10,548 bases of DNA from Naegleria gruberi (taxonomy: Eukaryota): NCBI GenBank assembly GCA_000004985.1, contig GG739021.1. The stretch is one strand, 5' to 3'. Of the stretch, positions 1 to 10,548 are shown one piece after another (position 1 is the stretch's first letter; each line of letters starts with the position of its first letter). The notes beneath the pieces are model-generated. The model was not told the origin of the DNA. It saw nothing but the letters and a program-made list of their open reading frames with translations, and did no database searches. Position numbers and translations under genes: made by a program.

Positions 1-71
1 GTGGCTCGACGATGCTTAACTTCTCAATCGGACGGGATGAGGTGCATTCATCGTGATATGGCCGTAGCCAT
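1..71. repeat. Copy 1 of a 71/72-nt direct repeat (GTGGCTCGACGATGCTTAAC...GGCCGTAGCCAT). The window starts exactly at its first base. Weaker homology continues to about position 100 (ATTGAATATAAG vs CAATGAATATAAG at the same offset).
   Basis: Identical to 1866-1937 except for one extra A in copy 2 (CTCAATCGG vs CTCAAATCGG). Internal complementarity: TGGCT (2-6) pairs with AGCCA (66-70), and ACGATG (9-14) pairs with CATCGT (49-54), so a hairpin is possible. Confidence 0.9.
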
Positions 72-797
72 CAATTACGTTAATAAATTGAATATAAGGC
101 TAACATCATCAATACGGTTAATATTAGCACCTCCTAATTGAGATTTTAAACACACTTGAACAATTTCTGAAACACCAACTCTCAATTGAGCATTATTTCC
201 ATAGCAGTTTGCAAGCATCCAAGATGAGGTAACACTTTGAAGTTTAGTATTGCCTTTGAAATTGCGTAACATGTAGTAGTTAGAAATTTAAAATTAGGCT
301 TACAAGTTGATACATTTTTGATTTTGATGAAGGAAATTTAATGAAAATCATGAATAAACAAAAGAAAACGACAAAAAACAACAAAACAACCCTCCTAATC
401 AATAAATTGTCTTTTTCAACAGTATCGTTCTGTTTCAATAACATTACTCCTCACCTTGATCATTCCAAAGTAACTAGTTCTCCAGTTTTAGAATTCCATG
501 TAGTTTTTTTTCGTTTTGGTGGTTCCAAAAGTTACAATGAGTTCCCAACTAATTATTTTAAGCAACACGATCAGGACCGTTAAATGAGAATATTGTAAAC
601 TAATATCCTCCCTTATCCATATCAAATTGTGTTGTTGAGTTCTATTCGATAGTTAGATGATACTGAGGTGTTACCATTCCTCTTACTGACTTCTCAATAA
701 GGTTGTTCCACATTGTTCAACCAATTCAATTCTCAGAAAACCATTGAACTCTATTAAACTCCATTGTAAATATTGTAATCTTACACAGTAAAATTTC

Positions 798-804
798 TAT
801 AAAT
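798..804 (+). promoter_or_regulatory. TATAAAT box about 100 bp upstream of the ATG at 902
   Basis: Canonical TATAAAT motif in a non-coding stretch, followed by an A-rich leader (aaaaaacaacacaaaaaaaac) and an A-rich ATG context (tcaaaATGact). Confidence 0.25.
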
Positions 805-901
805 TCAAATTGACTATTCTTTATGATAAAAAACAACACAAAAAAAACAATATTCAATATTGGATTGTATCTGAAAACTCCTCAACAAACTTTATATCAA
901 A

Positions 902-1121
902 ATGACTCAACAAACTCACGAAGAATTATTCAATGAAAACATGTGTGGAAGTGGTTTGGCATTCAAGAAGGTAGTTCGTGAATTATTCAACAATCGTATT
1001 GTTCCTGCAACCAAGAATCTTCAACAAGTCAATTCAAAGATGATCATCTTGTTGGATTGGGCTTCTCTTGCTGCATTGCCAACTGAAACCAAATACAAGT
1101 ATGGTGATAGATTGCTGAAGA
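902..1121 (+). CDS. Hypothetical protein, 5' part only (73 codons before assembly gap): MTQQTHEELFNENMCGSGLAFKKVVRELFNNRIVPATKNLQQVNSKMIILLDWASLAALPTETKYKYGDRLLK
   Basis: Open frame from a well-contexted ATG (aaaATGa) that runs into the N gap. No family recognised. Codon usage (TTG, CTG, AAG, ATC, AAC, TTC) and about 38% GC are unlike the neighbouring, extremely AT-rich genes. Confidence 0.45.
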
Positions 1122-1632
1122 NNNNNNNNNNNNNNNNNNNNNNNNNNNNNNNNNNNNNNNNNNNNNNNNNNNNNNNNNNNNNNNNNNNNNNNNNNNNNNN
1201 NNNNNNNNNNNNNNNNNNNNNNNNNNNNNNNNNNNNNNNNNNNNNNNNNNNNNNNNNNNNNNNNNNNNNNNNNNNNNNNNNNNNNNNNNNNNNNNNNNNN
1301 NNNNNNNNNNNNNNNNNNNNNNNNNNNNNNNNNNNNNNNNNNNNNNNNNNNNNNNNNNNNNNNNNNNNNNNNNNNNNNNNNNNNNNNNNNNNNNNNNNNN
1401 NNNNNNNNNNNNNNNNNNNNNNNNNNNNNNNNNNNNNNNNNNNNNNNNNNNNNNNNNNNNNNNNNNNNNNNNNNNNNNNNNNNNNNNNNNNNNNNNNNNN
1501 NNNNNNNNNNNNNNNNNNNNNNNNNNNNNNNNNNNNNNNNNNNNNNNNNNNNNNNNNNNNNNNNNNNNNNNNNNNNNNNNNNNNNNNNNNNNNNNNNNNN
1601 NNNNNNNNNNNNNNNNNNNNNNNNNNNNNNNN
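1122..1632. other. Assembly gap (511 N)
   Basis: Continuous run of N. ORF-track translations across it (902..1639 +, 1034..1675 -) are artifacts beyond the gap edges. Confidence 1.
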
Positions 1633-1865
1633 TGATTAATGCTTTCAATTGTTTAAAATGGCAGTACTCAATCAATATTGTAATGAATCAATAAAAACAA
1701 GCTTCCAATATTGTTAATATCAAACAAAATTTCTTCCTTTCAGAAACCTCTTTCAAAGACAGATTAATCATCGTTAAACTTACTTGTAAATGAACAAACT
1801 CTCCATAAAGATAAAAAGACTACAGCACTACAGGTTCCCAAGTTGTCTCCAACCTCAGTACTGAT

Positions 1866-1937
1866 GTGGCTCGACGATGCTTAACTTCTCAAATCGGACG
1901 GGATGAGGTGCATTCATCGTGATATGGCCGTAGCCAT
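1866..1937. repeat. Copy 2 of the 71/72-nt direct repeat
   Basis: 70/71 identity with 1-71 plus a 1-nt insertion. Preceded by ...cctcagtactgat. Same downstream partially conserved ATGAATATAAG block 16-27 nt after the repeat end. Confidence 0.9.
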
Positions 1938-2611
1938 TCATTTCCCAAACACAATGAATATAAGATTGGATATCTTCGTTTACTGGCAGTGGAAATTTCC
2001 TTATCTTTCAACAATCTATCAGAAACTAGATTAGATGATCTAGATCCAAAACAAGTTGTTTCTTCCATTTTACACAAAAGCTTTAACTGCCAACAATCAA
2101 ACTGATCAATGGTCTAGCTCCATTACTCGACAAATGTTAACCCAAAAATTTTCAATCCATCAATGCAGAAGAAACCAAAAACAAGGTAATCATGATTGCA
2201 AGTATTCAATAGTTTTGGAAATTAATTCCTAATCTCAAATGGGAAGGTGTGTTTTTTACAATTTTGTCAATCAATATTTTACAAAATATTAAAGTTAGAG
2301 AAATGCTATATATTCCAATTTTGGATTTGAATTTTCTCCCAAATAGATATCTTCTTCTTGCTCTTCGTGTTGAAATTAAGACATTTGATAAGAAGGCAAT
2401 TCCATCATATCAGGAAAACAATGAGAGGAAAGAACAAATGGAACTAAAAAGGGCATCTTGGAATATTTTTAAGGAATATGACACTTTGAAATCTTTGATT
2501 ATTTTCTCGGTGGTTTTAAGAGATATAACTTTGAAAATTGATAATTGGCTAGATTACATATCATTCCTCTTATGATGAAAAAATTAAAACTCAAATTTTG
2601 GAGATAATGTC

Positions 2612-2616
2612 AAAAA
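2612..2616 (-). terminator. RNA polymerase III terminator (T5 on the tRNA strand) 5 nt downstream of the tRNA-Asp 3' end
   Basis: Plus-strand AAAAA at 2612-2616 is TTTTT on the minus strand, immediately 3' of the tRNA discriminator base. Confidence 0.6.
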
Positions 2617-2621
2617 TTAAT

Positions 2622-2692
2622 CTCGAGTGCCGGGAATTGAACCCGGGTCGCCAGAGTGACAGTCTGGAATGCTACCACTATACCACACCCGA
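2622..2692 (-). tRNA. tRNA-Asp (anticodon GUC), 71 nt, no intron, CCA not encoded
   Basis: Reverse complement reads TCGGGTG-TG-GTAT-AGTGGTA-GCAT-T-CCAGA-CTGTCAC-TCTGG-CGAC-CCGGG-TTCAATT-CCCGG-CACTCGA-G. The acceptor stem is 7 bp (one G-T wobble). The anticodon stem CCAGA/TCTGG is perfect. The anticodon loop CTGTCAC carries GTC at positions 34-36. The T-arm CCGGG-TTCAATT-CCCGG is a canonical B box. The D-arm (GTATAGTGGT) resembles eukaryotic tRNA-Asp. Confidence 0.9.
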
Positions 2693-3044
2693 TTTCACAT
2701 TAATTCTCATTCAACATAATATTTCTAGCTATTCTAAAAAGGAACCTTAATTGTAGCTTTAAGTGTAATATTGCTTTCAATAAAAATTTTTTGATATTAA
2801 GGCTGAAGAGTTTGGTAAACTTAAACAATTTAAACTTGTTCAATGGAAACAAGTTCAAGTTTAATTTAAAGAATCAGACAGAGAAATTGTTTTACAAGCT
2901 ATTTCAATGGGAAAAGTTTACAATTATTCAAATGAAGTTGTTGGTTTTCCATTGGTAATTTTTAAAATAATTATGAGTGTCACTTCAAGTTCATCCTATT
3001 GAATCAATGTTTTGATCAATTTGAACAATGAACATTAAAAAAAA

Positions 3045-4198
3045 ATGTCATCATCATCGGATCCACTTGCTGATTATCGTCGTTTAGCAGCAGAGAGAAG
3101 AAATCGTTTATTAGGTAACAACAATACTTCTACTCCACCTCCATCACCATCAAATTTAAATAATAATAATAATAGTATATCATCATCATCACCTTCATCA
3201 TCAAATAACACGACAACTATTAATAATAATATATCATCAAATACTCCTAATACTCCTAATACTCCTAATACTCCTAATAATAATATAAAAACTAAAAAAT
3301 TAAAATTAATTGAAAAATCCAATGAAGAAATATTAAAAGAAAGAGAATCATTAATTCCAACAAATTTAATTTCAATTTTAAATCCAAATACAGAAAAAAA
3401 GAAATATTTAGAAAAATTAAATTCTGAAAATGAAATGATATTAAAAAGAGAAAGAGAAGAAAAAGAAAATTTATTAAAACAATTAAGAAATGATCCACAT
3501 ATAGGTAAAAAATCCAAATCTATTGATTATCCAAATATAGATAATAGTTTAAAATTAAATTCACCAACAAAACCAAATGAAATAACTGAAACTATATTTG
3601 AAAGTCAATTAGAAGAAAATGAACCATGTATTTTACAAATTAGATTTATAGATGGTTCAATTAGTAAAGTTAAATTTGAATCAAATGATAAATTAACACA
3701 AATATGTCAATATATATTTAATTCTGAAAAAGGAAAAGATTATAATGGTATTAAAATTAAAATACCATTATTTAAAATTAAATATTTTAATAATACAAAT
3801 ATGAATTTATATAATTTAAAAGAATTAGAATTAACTCCAAATGGTAATTTAATTATTGAAAATGATGAAAGTGAATTTGCATTTACAATTAATAATTTAA
3901 TTCAAGATTTAAATATTAATCATGAATTAAATTATTTACCTGTTGAATATATTTTACAAAATTTTGGTTCATCCTACAGATTAAAAGGTGATACAATTGA
4001 AGAGAAGGAAAAATTTAGAAATCGTCAACGTGAAAAGGAAATTGAACATGCAAAATTAGAAAAATTAAAAAAAAAGAAGGAAATGGAACAAGTTAGAAGA
4101 AATTTAGAATTAGATAAAAAAGAAAGATTAGAAAAATTAGAAAAATTAAATAATTTATCATCCAATTCACATTCATCATCAGCTATATTTGATTCAAG
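3045..4198 (+). CDS. Low-complexity protein with a UBX-like ubiquitin-fold domain (about aa 190-275: EPCILQIRFIDGSISKVKFESNDKLTQICQYIF...LELTPNGNLIIE) followed by a K/E-rich coiled coil. 5' end complete, 3' end lost in the assembly gap.
   Basis: Uninterrupted 384-codon frame from ATG in an A-rich context (aaaaaaaaATGtca). The N-terminus is rich in Asn/Ser/Thr/Pro, including a (PNT)4 repeat. The IRFxDGS...KF..NDKL.QI..YI pattern matches the beta-grasp core of UBX domains (p47/FAF1-like), although the FPR loop motif is absent. The ORF-track extension to 6371 is an artifact of translating N. Confidence 0.8.
3240..3275 (+). repeat. Perfect tandem 9-bp repeat (AATACTCCT)x4 encoding (NTP)x4 inside the UBX-like gene
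   Basis: aatactcct appears four times consecutively at 3240-3275. It is in frame and translates to NTPNTPNTPNTP. Confidence 0.95.
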
Positions 4199-6359: not shown

Positions 6360-6887
6360 TGGTCTAATTAACATATTTCTCATGAATAGAGCATGATAAG
6401 CACGTGTAGAGACAACTCTAATCTTAATTCTATATTTTGGATCCCAACCAGCATAACCATCAAAAACGTATAATTGTTCACGTGTATTTAAATAATCAAC
6501 AGCACGTTCTCTATTAACCATAAATGAATCTTCACTTAATGGAATATTAACAGGACCAAACCAAATATCATCTTTTGATGTTTCTTCTGAAACAATACGT
6601 TTATCTTTAGGTGAACGACCTGTCTTTTGTCCACTAAAAGCAACAAGTGCACCTGTACAAGTTAATGCTGTACCTCTTTCATGTTTTAATGCTTGTTCAT
6701 ATAATACTGGTACTGAAGCATTATGATAAACTCTACGTGCTGTAATACCATAACTTTCTAATTCTTGATGAACTGAATCTTCATCTGATGAATAATATTC
6801 TGGATCCATACGATGAAATTGATGATCTGATGCATGTTGATTATCTTGATGAACAGTTGGTGCTAAATGTTTGGCTAAATTTGACAT
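6360..6887 (-). CDS. pckA: Phosphoenolpyruvate carboxykinase (ATP), N-terminal 176 codons (MSNLAKHL...RAYHALFMRNMLIRP). The rest lies in the gap.
   Basis: The translation aligns closely with yeast Pck1 and E. coli PckA N-terminal regions: ELESYGI, VLYEQAL, SGALVAFSGQKTGRSPKDKRIV (nucleotide-binding kinase-1a region), WFGPVN, VNRERAVDYL, DGYAGWDPKYRIKIRVV, RAYHALFMRNMLIRP. ATG at 6887-6885. The frame is exactly in phase at the gap edge. Confidence 0.93.
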
Positions 6888-6929
6888 TTTTCTATTATTA
6901 TTATCATATCATATTATTATCATGATTAA

Positions 6930-7000
6930 CAGTGTAGGGGAGGAAAATAGGAATTGCATAAATAACAGTATAGGAGGAAAATAGGAGGAATTGCATAAAA
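6930..7000. promoter_or_regulatory. Imperfect tandem duplication (about 35 nt x2) of a G-rich box in the pckA 5' flank. Unit A CAGTGTAGGGGAGGAAAATAGGAATTGCATAAATA (6930-6964). Unit B CAGTATAGGAGGAAAATAGGAGGAATTGCATAAAA (6966-7000). A third TAGGGAGG box lies at 7111-7118.
   Basis: Two adjacent units are about 85% identical with small indels, 45-115 bp upstream of the pckA ATG (minus strand). G/C-rich boxes stand out against AT-rich flanks. On the gene strand they read CCTCC(CC)TA. Confidence 0.5.
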
Positions 7001-8063
7001 TGATCATAATGTTTTGATCAATTGTAAATGGATCAATCATTAATAAACATTGAATATTAATATAAAATTATTAATACAATAATAATACGCTACCTCTATT
7101 ATTTTAATATTAGGGAGGTGATGAAATAATTGAGACTTTTTTTTTTGAAATTAAATGGACCCAAGATAGATACAAAGCGACTTTAAATCCATTTTTGATT
7201 GGAGTCTAGTTTGGGTTCTGGTTTAAAATCTCGCGAATTAGCCCAGGTGGTAACCTATGGTGAAAAATGTGTTCGTTGATTTTGTAATATCGCTCTCACA
7301 TTAGCGAATTTATTGACTATTAGATATTTGTTGAGGTGAACTGGTGAATGATCAGGGTGCGCTATTTCAACCATTTTCTTTGTAGGGACTAAATTTGTTT
7401 CCGCCCCAAGTTTGAACATATTAAGGTTTATCAATTATACCAGTTATAGGTCCAAAGTATTAAGAGACATTATCTGAGATCTATCTAAACTCTTCATTTA
7501 TTTATGTGAGGTCTTTATTCAGTCAGAACCTTTTTAGTAAACGGAGAATGTACAACATTAATTTGATACAAAATGCATTTTTTGTCAATTAAATTTGGAA
7601 AACAAATCTATTCCAAATTTTTTAAACAGCAATTACATCAAAACCTCCTGATAAATTATTAAAGGCTACATTATCATTTGAAAAGCACATCAAACAGTGT
7701 AGTAAGGCAACTTTGAATGTCAATTCACAAATTTCATTTATTGATAGTGAGAACCATTTTCAATTGTGACTCACAACGATTGTTTATTCTGAATTCCACT
7801 CTCTGATTGTAAAATAATTCTCACTATGACCCCTCATTCCTAGACAAATCCAAGAAGTGTAATTCCCTGCAATGGAGGAAATTGTATTGAAAATCATACC
7901 ACTGGTGACTGACAATGAATTGTATGAAATTGGCTCACTTGTGGCCAAAGACCAAGAATATGTGAACGCATGTCCATTTAATCTACCTTTTTTTGCAAAC
8001 AGTTTAGTGAAATTGGCTTATCTCAACAATTATTTTTATTCTTGAGAAGGATTTACATGCCAT

Positions 8064-8396
8064 ATGGCTGTTTTAAACAAAAGAGGTGATCTATGTTTCA
8101 TGGATAGATCTCAACAAGACATGATATACTCTCCAGAAGAATTTAATGTTCTACTAATCTTTAAGAACAGTTTGCCAAATATACATTCAATGAACTGTGA
8201 CATCCCTCCTATTTTTACTAGCTCAATGGAGCTGATATGTCATTATCGATTACTCCAAGACTTCAACCAGAGCAGGTTCCAGTACAACTCACTCTACTGG
8301 TGGACTTTCCAAATGAGAAAAGTATTTGTCAAATCATTAAGGAGAATCACCAAGAGTTTCTACTGTTTTGCGAATTGGATATTGTCTCATTTCTAA
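8064..8396 (+). CDS. Orphan 110-aa ORF inside the 2.5-kb moderate-GC non-coding region. Probably not a real gene.
   Basis: It is the only ORF of at least 60 aa in 7000-9470. It is rich in C/W/F with no recognisable motifs, and its composition matches the surrounding non-coding DNA. Confidence 0.15.
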   Translation: MAVLNKRGDLCFMDRSQQDMIYSPEEFNVLLIFKNSLPNIHSMNCDIPPIFTSSMELICHYRLLQDFNQSRFQYNSLYWWTFQMRKVFVKSLRRITKSFYCFANWILSHF

Positions 8397-9473
8397 TAAG
8401 GTAAAAAGTTTAATTTCATGTGGATGGATATCATTTTACATGTCATGATGGTAATGAAAGAGATATTGTTGTAGCTTACATTCGTTTTATTTGAAAAAAG
8501 TTGGCTATTTTTATTTAAAAGACAAATATACCAATATAAACTTGTTTTTGTTAAACTGCAAAATATTTATGTAAATGTTAAAATTTGATGGGTTTTATCT
8601 TCTGTTGGTTTAACTTTAAACACTTGGAAGTGGAAAACCTTGAAACTATTCATTGAGAGTATTGATAATTAGAGTACTTAATTTACCAACGTTTGGATGA
8701 CCATTAACTCCTGTTATTTACCATACTGGTAATGATATACAGTGATAACTTTGGAATTGTACAGACAATAGGTTAGTCATTTAAAACTGCACCATTTGCT
8801 TGTATCTGATGTGGTTTAATACAACATTTAAAATCAATTTACGCTAAGTACTGTGGATATGTTTCCGTTTTGTTCTTGAGAAAACTTAAAGTGTTGGTAC
8901 TTGGCTAAGTTGTACCGATATCAGCACCTACTTACAGTATTGTTGTGCACTATAGAGACTCGTTAACATATATGCAAAGTCAGAGTAGTTTGAAAACTAC
9001 TAATACAATATAAAGTGCTCATCAATATGTATGGTATATTATCGTTACCGTATGTGTAAATACACAGCAGTACAACCCAGTTTGAGGTATGTTGGGTTTG
9101 CTACGATATCAAATGTGAGCAACATAACTCATCAAAAACACCAAAGTCAGAACAGCGAACCATGCTAAACCACCCAATACATAATGTAATATTTAGTGGT
9201 ATTTTCTTTTTAGGATCTTATCCACAGTGATAAAATATGATAACACCAATAATCGAAAATTCTAACAAATTGAAACTTTACAAAGTCTGCTATTTGTTGT
9301 GATAGACATGTTAATTACCCAAATCAGCTCATCAATCACGTAACCATTTTACGAGTCAACTGTCGTTAACAACATCAAATAAAAATGCTCACACAAACAC
9401 AGGCAGCAAATACAACCAGTTTTTCCAAAGCTTCTACATTTTGATTCAAGCATCATAATGTACCAACCCAATA

Positions 9474-10173: not shown

Positions 10174-10307
10174 CTGTCATTATTGATATTTCATTTTTAT
10201 TTATATTATTATTAAATTATTTAAATTATTATTTATATTATTATTTAAATTATTTAAATTATTTAAATTATTATTATTATTAGGTATTAAAGATGATATA
10301 ATCATAC
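10174..10307 (-). other. Putative 134-nt spliceosomal intron (GTATGA...ACAG) in the kinesin-like gene
   Basis: Donor GTATGA with G at +5 and acceptor CAG. The interval is about 10% GC, noticeably lower than the flanking exons. It contains AATTATTTAAATT-type microsatellite repeats. Splicing joins ...NSTLHN to DLYGYEVDEALDYY... in frame. Without splicing the frame stops at 10201-10203 (…NNLIII*), only 20 nt before the next ATG, which is implausibly close for a separate gene. Confidence 0.45.
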
Positions 10308-10548
10308 CATTATGTAAAGTACTATTTAAAATGTTAGAATTTAAAGTATTACTATTTAATAAAATATTATTATTTAAATAATAAAATAATTGATTTTCTA
10401 ATTCTAAAATTCTATTTTTTAATATTTTTTCATTTTGTAATAATAAATTAATTTTATCTAAATTAGGATCACCTCTAATAATTTTTAACTTATTTTTAAT
10501 ATGTTTAGCTCTATCAGCAAAATATAAAGATGATAAAATTCTTCCATA
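10308..10548 (-). CDS. Kinesin-like protein, end of the motor domain (YGRILSSLYFADRAKHIKNK), neck linker and coiled coil (RGDPNLDKINLLLQNEKILKNRILELENQL). The 5' part of the gene is outside the window.
   Basis: Open frame entering from the window edge. LSSLYFADRAKHIKNK matches the conserved kinesin motor C-terminal motif (ETLSTLRFAxRAKxIKNK). It is followed by a neck-linker-like xxDPxxxxLLxxxQxEIxxL pattern and heptad-repeat residues. Confidence 0.65.

What the first reader, a model, noticed from the sequence alone, without database searches (positions are those of the whole stretch)
1..1937. 71/72-nt hairpin-forming direct repeat bounding an 1.9-kb island of foreign-looking composition. The window starts exactly at the repeat.
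Positions 1-71 and 1866-1937 are the same sequence (one 1-nt indel), with residual homology for a further 30 nt or so. The window's first base is the repeat's first base, which is what is expected when a contig breaks at a multi-copy repeat. The repeat can fold (TGGCT/AGCCA terminal stem, ACGATG/CATCGT internal stem). Between the copies lie an assembly gap and an orphan ORF (902-1121) with codon usage unlike the neighbouring genes. The whole block sits a few hundred bp from the 3' side of a tRNA gene, and in dictyostelids tRNA flanks are the preferred landing sites of TRE3/TRE5/DGLT retroelements. Candidates are terminal or solo repeats of an undescribed mobile element, or two copies of a small structured ncRNA gene (about 70 nt with paired 5'/3' ends, reminiscent of but not matching the dictyostelid Class I RNAs).
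Basis: partly seen in the sequence, partly recalled or inferred. Interest (0 to 1): 0.6.

Follow-up and report, generated by a model that had tools for sequence, protein, structure and literature searches.

The report
Two ordinary Naegleria 5S rRNA genes
The "71/72-nt repeat" is the first 70 bases of the 5S ribosomal RNA gene read on the opposite strand: one complete copy and one cut off by the scaffold end, in the amoeboflagellate Naegleria gruberi, whose ~279 scattered 5S genes were already catalogued in 2012, so this is ordinary.

Summary
The repeat is real (1-98 vs 1866-1964, E 3.7e-32), but it is not a mobile-element terminus or a new ncRNA. On the minus strand, 1817-1935 is a complete 5S rRNA gene (Rfam 100 bits). 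Positions 1-69 are the 5' 69 nt of a second copy, cut by the scaffold start, so the "72-nt" unit size is an edge artefact.

Both copies have an identical TATA-like element (CTTATATTCA) at -29 to -20 and box A at the classical position. The complete copy also has a box C-like element and a T5 terminator.

The window is a whole 10,548-nt Naegleria gruberi scaffold, not dictyostelid DNA. [quoted passage not shown] Its row "scaffold_188 1816-1932" is almost certainly this copy. Pairs 1.5-2.5 kb apart are common in that table.

The "orphan ORF" (902-1121) is the start of a real gene from a small Naegleria paralog family. Its codon usage matches its paralogs, and those paralogs are not flanked by 5S genes. 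I found no transposon domains and no target-site duplications. The block's 33% GC equals the genus average.

Verdict: already known, low interest.

The parts
1..69 (-). 5S rRNA gene copy A. Only the 5' 69 nt are present (Rfam model positions 1-71); the 3' part lies beyond the scaffold start. One U of the UU bulge in helix III is missing relative to copy B.
   Evidence: Rfam RF00001, 49.3 bits, E 5e-08, flagged as cut at the 3' end. Alignment to copy B.
7..21 (-). Box A of the internal control region in copy A (AGTTAAGCATCGTCG).
   Evidence: Exact match to the box A consensus used in PMC3369914, at RNA positions 49-63.
89..98 (-). TATA-like upstream element CTTATATTCA of copy A, at -29 to -20.
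   Evidence: 10/10 identical and in register with copy B while the surrounding flanks differ; shuffle P ~1e-4. A TATA box is reported for N. gruberi 5S genes in PMC3369914.
902..1121 (+). N-terminal 73 codons of a real protein-coding gene (exon 1 of annotated NAEGRDRAFT_76539 / XP_002668543.1), running into the gap. It belongs to a ~175-aa Naegleria paralog family of unknown function and is not part of the 5S genes.
   Evidence: Exhaustive phmmer finds P0123 (94%), P0124 (54%), P0126 (48%) and P0127 (42%). Accessions come and the alignment. No Pfam or PDB hit.
1122..1632 (.). Assembly gap of 511 N. The 1866-nt spacing between the copies is therefore an estimate, and the 3' two-thirds of the spacer gene is probably hidden here.
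   Evidence: The paralogs are 174-175 aa, so the gene would end near 1430.
1813..1817 (-). T5 run at the 3' end of copy B, a Pol III terminator.
   Evidence: The minus strand reads ...GCTGTAGTCTTTTTATC.
1817..1935 (-). 5S rRNA gene copy B, complete (119 nt).
   Evidence: Rfam RF00001, 100.1 bits against a gathering score of 38, E 1.8e-21, model positions 1-120. The MFE fold is the three-helix junction. In a 10-sequence alignment, 22 of 38 pairs show compensatory changes. It is 117/119 identical to metagenomic L023.
1839..1856 (-). Box C-like element of the internal control region in copy B (GAGGTTGGAGACAACTTG, RNA 80-97).
   Evidence: Matches the box C consensus with 2 mismatches at the classical position.
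1872..1886 (-). Box A of the internal control region in copy B (RNA 50-64).
   Evidence: Exact consensus match.
1955..1964 (-). TATA-like upstream element CTTATATTCA of copy B, at -29 to -20.
2622..2692 (-). tRNA-Asp(GUC) gene in the same orientation as the 5S genes. It has its own T5 terminator at 2612-2616, so it is not co-transcribed with the 5S gene 686 nt downstream.
   Evidence: ARAGORN, Rfam 57.1 bits, sequence.

Best explanation
The repeat is two chromosomal 5S ribosomal RNA genes of Naegleria gruberi, both on the minus strand and about 1.9 kb apart. A tRNA-Asp gene lies 0.7 kb upstream in the same orientation. Copy B (1817-1935) is complete. Copy A (1-69) is truncated because the scaffold ends inside this multi-copy gene, so the apparent 71/72-nt unit is only the part of the gene that fits in the window.

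Each gene is an independent RNA polymerase III unit with four parts: a TATA-like element at -29 to -20, box A at +50-64, a box C-like element at +80-97 (visible only in copy B, because copy A is cut), and a T5 terminator (also visible only in copy B).

Inferred mechanism, not tested here: TFIIIB/TBP is positioned by the TATA element and by factors bound to the internal control region. Pol III then transcribes a ~119-nt RNA that folds into the three-helix 5S structure and enters the large ribosomal subunit. The 18S/5.8S/28S genes of this organism sit on an extrachromosomal circle.

The DNA between the copies is ordinary host DNA carrying a small host gene on the other strand. It is not the interior of a mobile element.
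For: - Identity of the RNA: Rfam 5S_rRNA at 100.1 bits (full) and 49.3 bits (3'-cut), with no other family at E<=1 apart from the tRNA. The canonical fold is supported by 22 of 38 covarying pairs.
- Promoter and terminator: box A, box C, TATA and T5 at the classical positions. The TATA element is identical and in register in both copies although the flanks differ.
- Organism: PEPCK fragment P0001 'predicted protein [Naegleria gruberi]' is 171/173 identical and lies on a contig of 10,548 nt, the window's length. P0123 = XP_002668543.1 lies on the same 10,548-nt contig.
- Literature: PMC3369914 reports 279 N. gruberi 5S genes with an ICR and a TATA box, not linked to the rDNA. Its Table S1 has the row scaffold_188 1816-1932.
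- Arrangement: in that table 29 adjacent pairs lie under 4 kb apart (7.5 expected if random, taking a 41-Mb genome from my own knowledge), 17 of them at 1.5-2.5 kb. Several small scaffolds begin in a 5S gene.
- Relative: a near-identical 5S gene (117/119) with an upstream TATA-like motif occurs on metagenomic contig L023.
- rDNA: the Naegleria extrachromosomal rDNA element carries only 18S, 5.8S and 28S (PMC5805870 and PMC12482156).
Against: - Nothing contradicts the 5S identity.
- Expression of these two particular copies was not shown.
- Copy A cannot be shown to be complete, and it carries a 1-nt deletion in the helix III bulge, so it could be a variant, a pseudogene or a read-end error.
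- Box C has 2 mismatches to the generic consensus.
- TFIIIA was not found in N. gruberi by PMC3369914, so how the internal control region is read remains open.
- The equation with 'scaffold_188' rests on matching coordinates, not on a sequence comparison.
Confidence: 0.97

Rival explanations
1. The two copies are terminal or solo repeats of an undescribed mobile element that inserted next to a tRNA gene.
For: Direct repeats bracket ~1.8 kb next to a tRNA gene. The block is absent from the syntenic UBX-PEPCK contig of a relative, L056.
Against: - The repeat is a full-scoring 5S rRNA gene.
- Similarity stops at the TATA element and the flanks are unrelated.
- No target-site duplication: the longest shared flank k-mer is 5 nt, P 0.74.
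- No RT, integrase or transposase domain in any ORF of 35 aa or more in 1-2858.
- The interior encodes a host paralog-family gene whose paralogs are not flanked by 5S genes.
- TRE and DGLT elements are dictyostelid elements, and this organism is a heterolobosean.
Confidence: 0.01
2. A novel ~70-nt structured ncRNA gene with paired 5' and 3' ends, similar to a Class I RNA, present in two copies.
For: Two nearly identical copies exist, and the 72-mer can be drawn as a hairpin.
Against: - The plus-strand 72-mer folds no better than shuffled sequence (z -0.03 and -0.19).
- The unit is really 119 nt on the minus strand, and the 72-nt boundary is the window edge.
- The proposed terminal stem is not used in the covariation-supported structure.
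- No Rfam family other than 5S and tRNA matches at E<=1.
- The organism is not a dictyostelid.
Confidence: 0.01
3. The second copy is an assembly artefact: a duplicated or mis-joined contig end, so that only one 5S gene really exists here.
For: - Copy A sits at the very end of the scaffold.
- It is linked to the rest only across a 511-N gap.
- The scaffold looks like a redundant haplotig: the UBX gene is 131/132 identical to P0122, which lies on a 573-kb scaffold.
Against: - The two copies have entirely different upstream flanks beyond the 10-nt TATA element, so they are two distinct loci.
- Copy A differs by an indel.
- Pairs 1.5-2.5 kb apart are a common arrangement in the published list.
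Confidence: 0.04
4. Copy A is a non-functional 5S variant or pseudogene, while copy B is the working gene.
For: Copy A lacks one U of the two-nucleotide bulge in helix III. That U is present in copy B and in the close relative L023. Its 3' half cannot be seen.
Against: - The TATA element and box A are intact.
- The difference is a homopolymer-length change within 45 nt of a scaffold end, where read quality is typically poor.
- The rest of the visible 69 nt is identical to copy B.
Confidence: 0.15

Closest known systems
Naegleria gruberi chromosomal 5S rRNA genes as catalogued in PMC3369914 (PLoS One 2012, Table S1, 279 copies; row R33406 scaffold_188 1816-1932)
   Same: - Same organism.
- Essentially the same coordinates as copy B (1817-1935).
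- Same reported features: upstream TATA box, internal control region, T-run terminator, and location away from the 18S-5.8S-28S unit.
   Different: - Their BLAST-defined copy is 117 nt, against 119 nt from the covariance model.
- The truncated copy at 1-69 is not in their list.
- They call the arrangement 'tandem'. By my count of their coordinates it is loose clustering: the closest spacing is 462 nt and the mode is 1.5-2.5 kb.
Dispersed 5S rRNA genes with an upstream TATA-like element near -25 to -30, as in Neurospora crassa, Schizosaccharomyces pombe and Arabidopsis (from my own knowledge, not checked here)
   Same: Individual Pol III type-1 units scattered through the chromosomes. Each has its own TATA-like element about 25-30 nt upstream, in addition to the internal control region. 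Several unrelated protist 5S loci in the metagenome sample also show TATA-like motifs at about -33 to -22.
   Different: In N. gruberi no TFIIIA was detected (PMC3369914), and a quarter to a fifth of the copies sit in close pairs.
Yarrowia lipolytica dicistronic tRNA-5S genes (mentioned in PMC3369914)
   Same: A tRNA gene lies upstream of a 5S gene in the same orientation, in an organism where TFIIIA-independent 5S transcription is discussed.
   Different: Here the tRNA-Asp is 686 nt away and has its own T5 terminator at 2612-2616. The 5S gene has its own TATA element. These are separate transcription units.
   Same: Only the superficial setting: AT-rich amoeba DNA, a tRNA gene nearby, and a repeated short sequence.
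   Different: Different phylum (Heterolobosea vs Amoebozoa). No retroelement ORFs, no target-site duplications, and the repeat is 5S rRNA.

Membership tests
5S ribosomal RNA (Rfam RF00001) | Covariance-model score above the curated gathering threshold over the full model | tested here: met
   Copy B scores 100.1 bits against a threshold of 38, over model positions 1-120, E 1.8e-21. Copy A scores 49.3 bits over model positions 1-71 and is cut by the window end.
5S ribosomal RNA (Rfam RF00001) | A ~120-nt RNA forming a three-way junction (helices I-V) in which the 5' and 3' ends pair as helix I | tested here: met
   The MFE fold of 1817-1935(-) gives helix I plus two arms. RNAalifold on 10 diverse 5S loci including this one gives 38 pairs, 22 with compensatory changes.
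Eukaryotic Pol III type-1 (5S) gene | Internal control region: box A at about +50-64 and box C at about +80-97 | tested here: met
   Box A matches exactly at +50-64. Box C-like at +80-97 has 2 mismatches to the consensus quoted in PMC3369914. Factor binding was not tested.
Eukaryotic Pol III type-1 (5S) gene | Termination at a run of four or more T directly after the mature 3' end | tested here: met
   TTTTT at 1817-1813 on the minus strand. Copy A's terminator lies outside the window.
N. gruberi 5S gene family (PMC3369914) | Upstream TATA box, chromosomal and multi-copy, not linked to the rDNA unit | tested here: met
   CTTATATTCA at -29 to -20 in both copies. There is no 18S, 5.8S or 28S match in the window. 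Copy number comes from the paper, not from my own count.
5S ribosomal RNA (function) | Transcribed and incorporated into the large ribosomal subunit | not testable with these tools
   No expression or ribosome data are available here.
LTR or terminal-repeat mobile element (incl. dictyostelid TRE/DGLT) | Terminal repeats enclosing element-encoded RT, integrase or transposase | tested here: not met
   No such Pfam domain in any ORF of 35 aa or more in 1-2858. The interior ORF belongs to a host paralog family. Part of the interior is hidden in the 511-N gap.
LTR or terminal-repeat mobile element (incl. dictyostelid TRE/DGLT) | Target-site duplication flanking the inserted unit | tested here: not met
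   The longest k-mer shared by the 40-nt flanks of the conserved unit of copy B is 5 nt, as expected by chance (P 0.74).
Dictyostelid Class I RNA | Found in Dictyostelia; a short RNA whose 5' and 3' ends form the terminal stem | tested here: not met
   The organism is Naegleria gruberi, Heterolobosea. The proposed terminal stem is not part of the supported structure, and the 72-mer fold has z about 0. The family's sequence motif and upstream DUSE element were not specifically searched.

The most novel reading that the evidence does not exclude
The 5S genes of N. gruberi spread and persist as minimal ~150-bp 'TATA-to-terminator' units. These units are non-randomly arranged in same-strand pairs 1.5-2.5 kb apart, often beside tRNA genes, and each pair brackets a single protein-coding gene. 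Such Pol III gene pairs might act as TFIIIB/TFIIIC-bound chromatin boundaries, or they might mark a local duplication mechanism. Because no TFIIIA has been found in this organism, the invariant -29 to -20 TATA element might be the main promoter determinant rather than the internal control region.
Probability: 0.1. Interest if true: 0.35.

Novelty: already known. Interest (0 to 1): 0.07.

Why it matters
It matters mainly as a correction.
- A feature that looked like a mobile-element boundary or a new small RNA is the 5S rRNA gene read on the wrong strand and clipped by the scaffold end.
- The organism was mis-guessed.
- It also explains why the scaffold ends where it does: the assembly broke in a ~279-copy gene.
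- The annotated gene model NAEGRDRAFT_76539 has an "intron" that swallows an assembly gap and a 5S gene, and is probably wrong.

The only mildly open biology is why about a fifth of N. gruberi 5S genes sit in ~2-kb pairs, and how they are transcribed without a recognisable TFIIIA. Both questions already follow from published data.

Tried and rejected
- The repeat finder did not list the 5S repeat among its top families, which were swamped by AT-rich low complexity. Self-BLAST was needed.
- The bacterial-type promoter/terminator scan was uninformative for a eukaryote.
- Exact 37-nt 5S search in metagenome contigs: 0 hits. A degenerate pattern then gave 51 loci, only one of them close (L023).
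- Look-ups of the N. gruberi proteins P0001 and P0122 for genomic context failed because they are not in the index. I therefore could not read the 573-kb scaffold or other N. gruberi 5S loci.
- The genome paper (Cell 2010) is not held.
- I first concluded that ORF 902-1121 was a chance open frame: the word-index search found no homolog, its length is within chance (P 0.19), and it shows no AT3 bias. I rejected that conclusion after the exhaustive HMMER search found N. gruberi paralogs.
- I suspected a chimeric or contaminant scaffold because of Dictyostelium-like AT3-rich, poly-N genes beside GC3~0.38 DNA. I rejected this for four reasons:
  - The gap-free contig 1633-4198 links 5S-B, the tRNA and the UBX gene.
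  - The UBX gene also lies on a 573-kb N. gruberi scaffold.
  - PEPCK is 93% identical to a syntenic relative.
  - Low GC3 is reported for N. clarki (PMC11702301).
- Composite '5S-gene-5S' unit: rejected, because the paralog loci L057, L058 and L060 have no 5S or tRNA gene. Their flanks are short, though (0.2-1.6 kb).
- Function of the spacer protein family: no Pfam hit and no PDB hit. The AlphaFold single-sequence model had pLDDT 36.5 and was unusable, so I ran no fold search.
- Pfam on ORFs of the ORF-poor 7150-9470 stretch and the right-end ORFs gave nothing above threshold.
Full report
**1. The observation**

The repeat exists. Positions 1-71 and 1866-1937 are identical except for one T in a T-run, and the similarity continues to 98/1964. 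A self-BLAST of the window gives 1-98 vs 1866-1964 at E 3.7e-32. Every other self-match is AT-rich low complexity. The 511-N gap (1122-1632), the ORF 902-1121 that runs into it, and a tRNA gene (tRNA-Asp GUC, 2622-2692, minus strand) are all there.

**2. What the repeat is**

Read on the minus strand, 1817-1935 is a complete 5S rRNA gene: Rfam RF00001, 100.1 bits against a gathering score of 38, E 1.8e-21, model positions 1-120. Positions 1-69 match model positions 1-71 at 49.3 bits and are flagged as cut at the 3' end by the end of the sequence. A permissive scan (E<=1) finds nothing else in the window except the tRNA.

The "71/72-nt repeat" is therefore the 5' 70 nt of the gene. Its left boundary at 1866 exists only because the window begins there, and copy B runs on as 5S for another 49 nt.

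- The 119-nt RNA folds into the three-helix junction.
- In an alignment with nine other 5S loci, 22 of 38 pairs show compensatory changes, and the 5' end pairs with the true 3' end.

**3. Anatomy of the genes**

| Feature | Position relative to +1 | Window coordinates (copy B / copy A) | Evidence |
|---|---|---|---|
| TATA-like element CTTATATTCA | -29 to -20 | 1955-1964 / 89-98 | Identical and in register in both copies while the rest of the upstream flanks differ; shuffle P ~1e-4 |
| Box A | +50-64 | 1872-1886 / 7-21 | Exact consensus match |
| Box C-like element | +80-97 | 1839-1856 / outside the window | 2 mismatches |
| T5 terminator | directly after the 3' end | 1813-1817 / outside the window | |

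The tRNA-Asp lies 686 nt upstream on the same strand and has its own T5 run at 2612-2616. So these are three separate Pol III units, not a Yarrowia-type tRNA-5S dicistron.

Copy A lacks one U of the UU bulge in helix III. Copy B and the close relative L023 both have it. The difference lies within 45 nt of the scaffold end, so it may be a read error, a variant or a pseudogene.

**4. Organism**

The window is not dictyostelid.
- The PEPCK exon at 6360-6887(-) is 171/173 identical to a "predicted protein [Naegleria gruberi]" that lies on a contig of 10,548 nt, exactly the window length.
- The gene model XP_002668543.1 (NAEGRDRAFT_76539) is also on a 10,548-nt contig and is built from window sequence.
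- N. gruberi is a heterolobosean.
- The UBX-domain gene at 3045-4198 is 131/132 identical to a second N. gruberi protein on a 573,072-nt contig. This small scaffold is therefore probably a redundant haplotype or duplicate of a locus in a large scaffold.

**5. What is already known**

PMC3369914 (2012) searched the N. gruberi genome and reported 279 putative 5S genes. They have a TATA box and an internal control region and are not linked to the rDNA unit. The paper found TFIIIB and TFIIIC but no TFIIIA. Its Table S1 contains "scaffold_188 1816-1932", which matches copy B (1817-1935) to within BLAST-boundary differences.

From that table I computed the following:
- The copies lie on 117 scaffolds.
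- 29 adjacent pairs are closer than 4 kb, against 7.5 expected for random placement in 41 Mb (genome size from my own knowledge).
- 17 of those pairs are 1.5-2.5 kb apart.
- 56 of 279 copies have a neighbour within 4 kb.
- Five small scaffolds start within 300 nt of a 5S gene.

A ~1.9-kb pair and a scaffold that ends inside a copy are therefore typical of this assembly. The large rRNAs of Naegleria are on an extrachromosomal circle that carries 18S, 5.8S and 28S only (PMC5805870 and PMC12482156).

**6. The "island"**

*Composition.* The block is 33% GC, against 27% for the rest of the window. That is the published genus value of 33-37%, and it is close to the 31% of 6888-9473. The window's low-GC parts are AT3-rich, low-complexity coding regions.

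*The ORF.* I first took ORF 902-1121 for a chance frame: the word-index search found no homolog and its length is within chance (P 0.19). The exhaustive HMMER search overturned that.
- It is exon 1 of NAEGRDRAFT_76539.
- It has paralogs in N. gruberi: NAEGRDRAFT_75460 (175 aa) and NAEGRDRAFT_59497 (174 aa), both on large scaffolds, plus a 217-aa relative.
- Its GC by codon position (0.43/0.32/0.38) matches its paralogs, whose GC3 is 0.30-0.37. The unusual codon usage is therefore a family trait, not a foreign one.
- The neighbouring UBX and PEPCK genes are the extreme ones, with GC3 of 0.05-0.07.

*The annotated model.* The model joins 902-1102 to 2294-2572 through a 1.19-kb GT-AG "intron" that contains the gap and 5S copy B. 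Paralog homology stops at exon 1. The window reads on in frame as KYKYGD, like paralog P0124. The second exon is therefore probably an artefact, and the real 3' part probably lies in the gap.

**7. Mobile-element test**

- The two copies share nothing beyond the gene and the TATA element.
- The flanks of the conserved unit have no target-site duplication.
- No ORF of 35 aa or more in 1-2858 has an RT, integrase or transposase domain.
- The paralog loci L057, L058 and L060 have no 5S or tRNA gene within 0.2-1.6 kb, so there is no composite 5S-gene-5S unit.
- A syntenic contig from a relative (L056) has UBX followed by a convergent PEPCK gene, with PEPCK 93% identical. Upstream of UBX it has LRR genes and no 5S or tRNA. 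The Pol III gene cluster is thus lineage-specific, as expected for dispersed 5S genes, but this says nothing about mechanism.

**8. Related sequences**

A degenerate 5S pattern found 51 metagenomic loci. One of them, L023, carries a 5S gene that is 117/119 identical (Rfam 106 bits), with a TATA-like AATTATAGAA at about -26 to -16. Only the gene itself aligns with the window. Several unrelated protist 5S loci in the set also show TATA-like motifs near -33 to -22.

**9. Verdict**

The feature is a pair of ordinary, already catalogued 5S rRNA genes of Naegleria gruberi. Novelty: already known. Interest: low.

The residual open points already follow from published data:
- the excess of ~2-kb pairs;
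- transcription without a detectable TFIIIA;
- the status of copy A.

Noticed in passing
window 902-1121, 1103-2294, 2294-2572: The annotated gene model NAEGRDRAFT_76539 (XP_002668543.1) joins ORF 902-1102 to 2294-2572 through a 1.19-kb GT-AG 'intron' that contains the 511-N gap and a 5S rRNA gene. Paralog homology covers only exon 1, and the window continues in frame (KYKYGD) like paralog P0124. The second exon is therefore probably a prediction artefact.
   Followed up: yes
window 902-1121; loci L057 196-720, L058 1193-1720, L060 1622-2275: A small family of ~175-aa proteins, so far seen only in Naegleria-like DNA (conserved GGLAFKK...MILLIDWxSL...LKYK...DPDCKEAF...CF*). No Pfam or PDB match, and the AlphaFold single-sequence model was unusable (pLDDT 36). 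The word-index homolog search missed the family entirely; only the exhaustive HMMER search found it.
   Followed up: partly
window 3045-4198 and 6360-6887 vs 902-1121; L056 2444-5696: There is a very large GC3 split within one scaffold. The UBX and PEPCK genes have GC3 of 0.05-0.07 with poly-N/Q tracts, while the spacer gene has 0.38 and non-coding DNA is ~0.30-0.33. The orthologous UBX and PEPCK genes in a syntenic relative (PEPCK 93% aa identity) have GC3 of 0.39-0.41. Third codon positions that are far more AT-rich than the surrounding non-coding DNA are unusual, and I have no explanation.
   Followed up: partly
window 7150-9470: A 2.3-kb ORF-poor stretch (longest ORF 110 aa) with 31-34% GC lies between the PEPCK gene and the Q-rich gene, in a genome reported to be gene-dense. 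It has no Pfam or Rfam hit. Given how the spacer gene was missed at first, it could still hide unrecognised genes.
   Followed up: partly
window 3801-4196 (UBX gene, residues 253-384): This segment is 131/132 identical to N. gruberi protein P0122, which lies on a 573,072-nt contig and continues past the window's second gap. The 10.5-kb scaffold is therefore probably an alternative haplotype or redundant duplicate of a locus in a large scaffold.
   Followed up: partly
window 25-27 (copy A) vs 1890-1893 (copy B): Copy A has GAUUGAG where copy B and the close relative L023 have GAUUUGAG, so one U of the two-nucleotide helix III bulge is missing. This is a homopolymer-length difference within 45 nt of the scaffold end: an error, a variant or a pseudogene.
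   Followed up: partly
window 2612-2616 and 2716-2724: The tRNA-Asp gene has its own T5 terminator 5 nt after its 3' end, and an AT-rich AAATATTAT at -32 to -24. This is a position similar to the 5S TATA-like element, but it could be chance in AT-rich DNA.
   Followed up: no
L056 1-6507: A metagenomic contig from a relative keeps the UBX -> <- PEPCK convergent gene pair. Upstream of UBX it has LRR-protein genes and no 5S or tRNA genes, so the Pol III gene cluster is not conserved at this locus.
   Followed up: partly
window about 10204-10548 (minus strand): The ORF cut by the right end of the scaffold begins ...GRILSSLYFADRAKHIKNK. From memory this resembles the C-terminal end of a kinesin motor domain, but Pfam gave no significant hit on the short fragment.
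   Followed up: partly
L030 3136-3986 and L046 996-1837: Two metagenomic contigs from an unrelated protist carry two identical 5S genes about 725-730 nt apart, each with a TATAAAAGC motif near -30. This is a tighter tandem arrangement than anything in the N. gruberi list.
   Followed up: no
window 3891-3936: A 46-nt self-complementary AT-rich stretch (87% palindromic) lies inside the UBX gene coding region. It is probably low-complexity chance.
   Followed up: no
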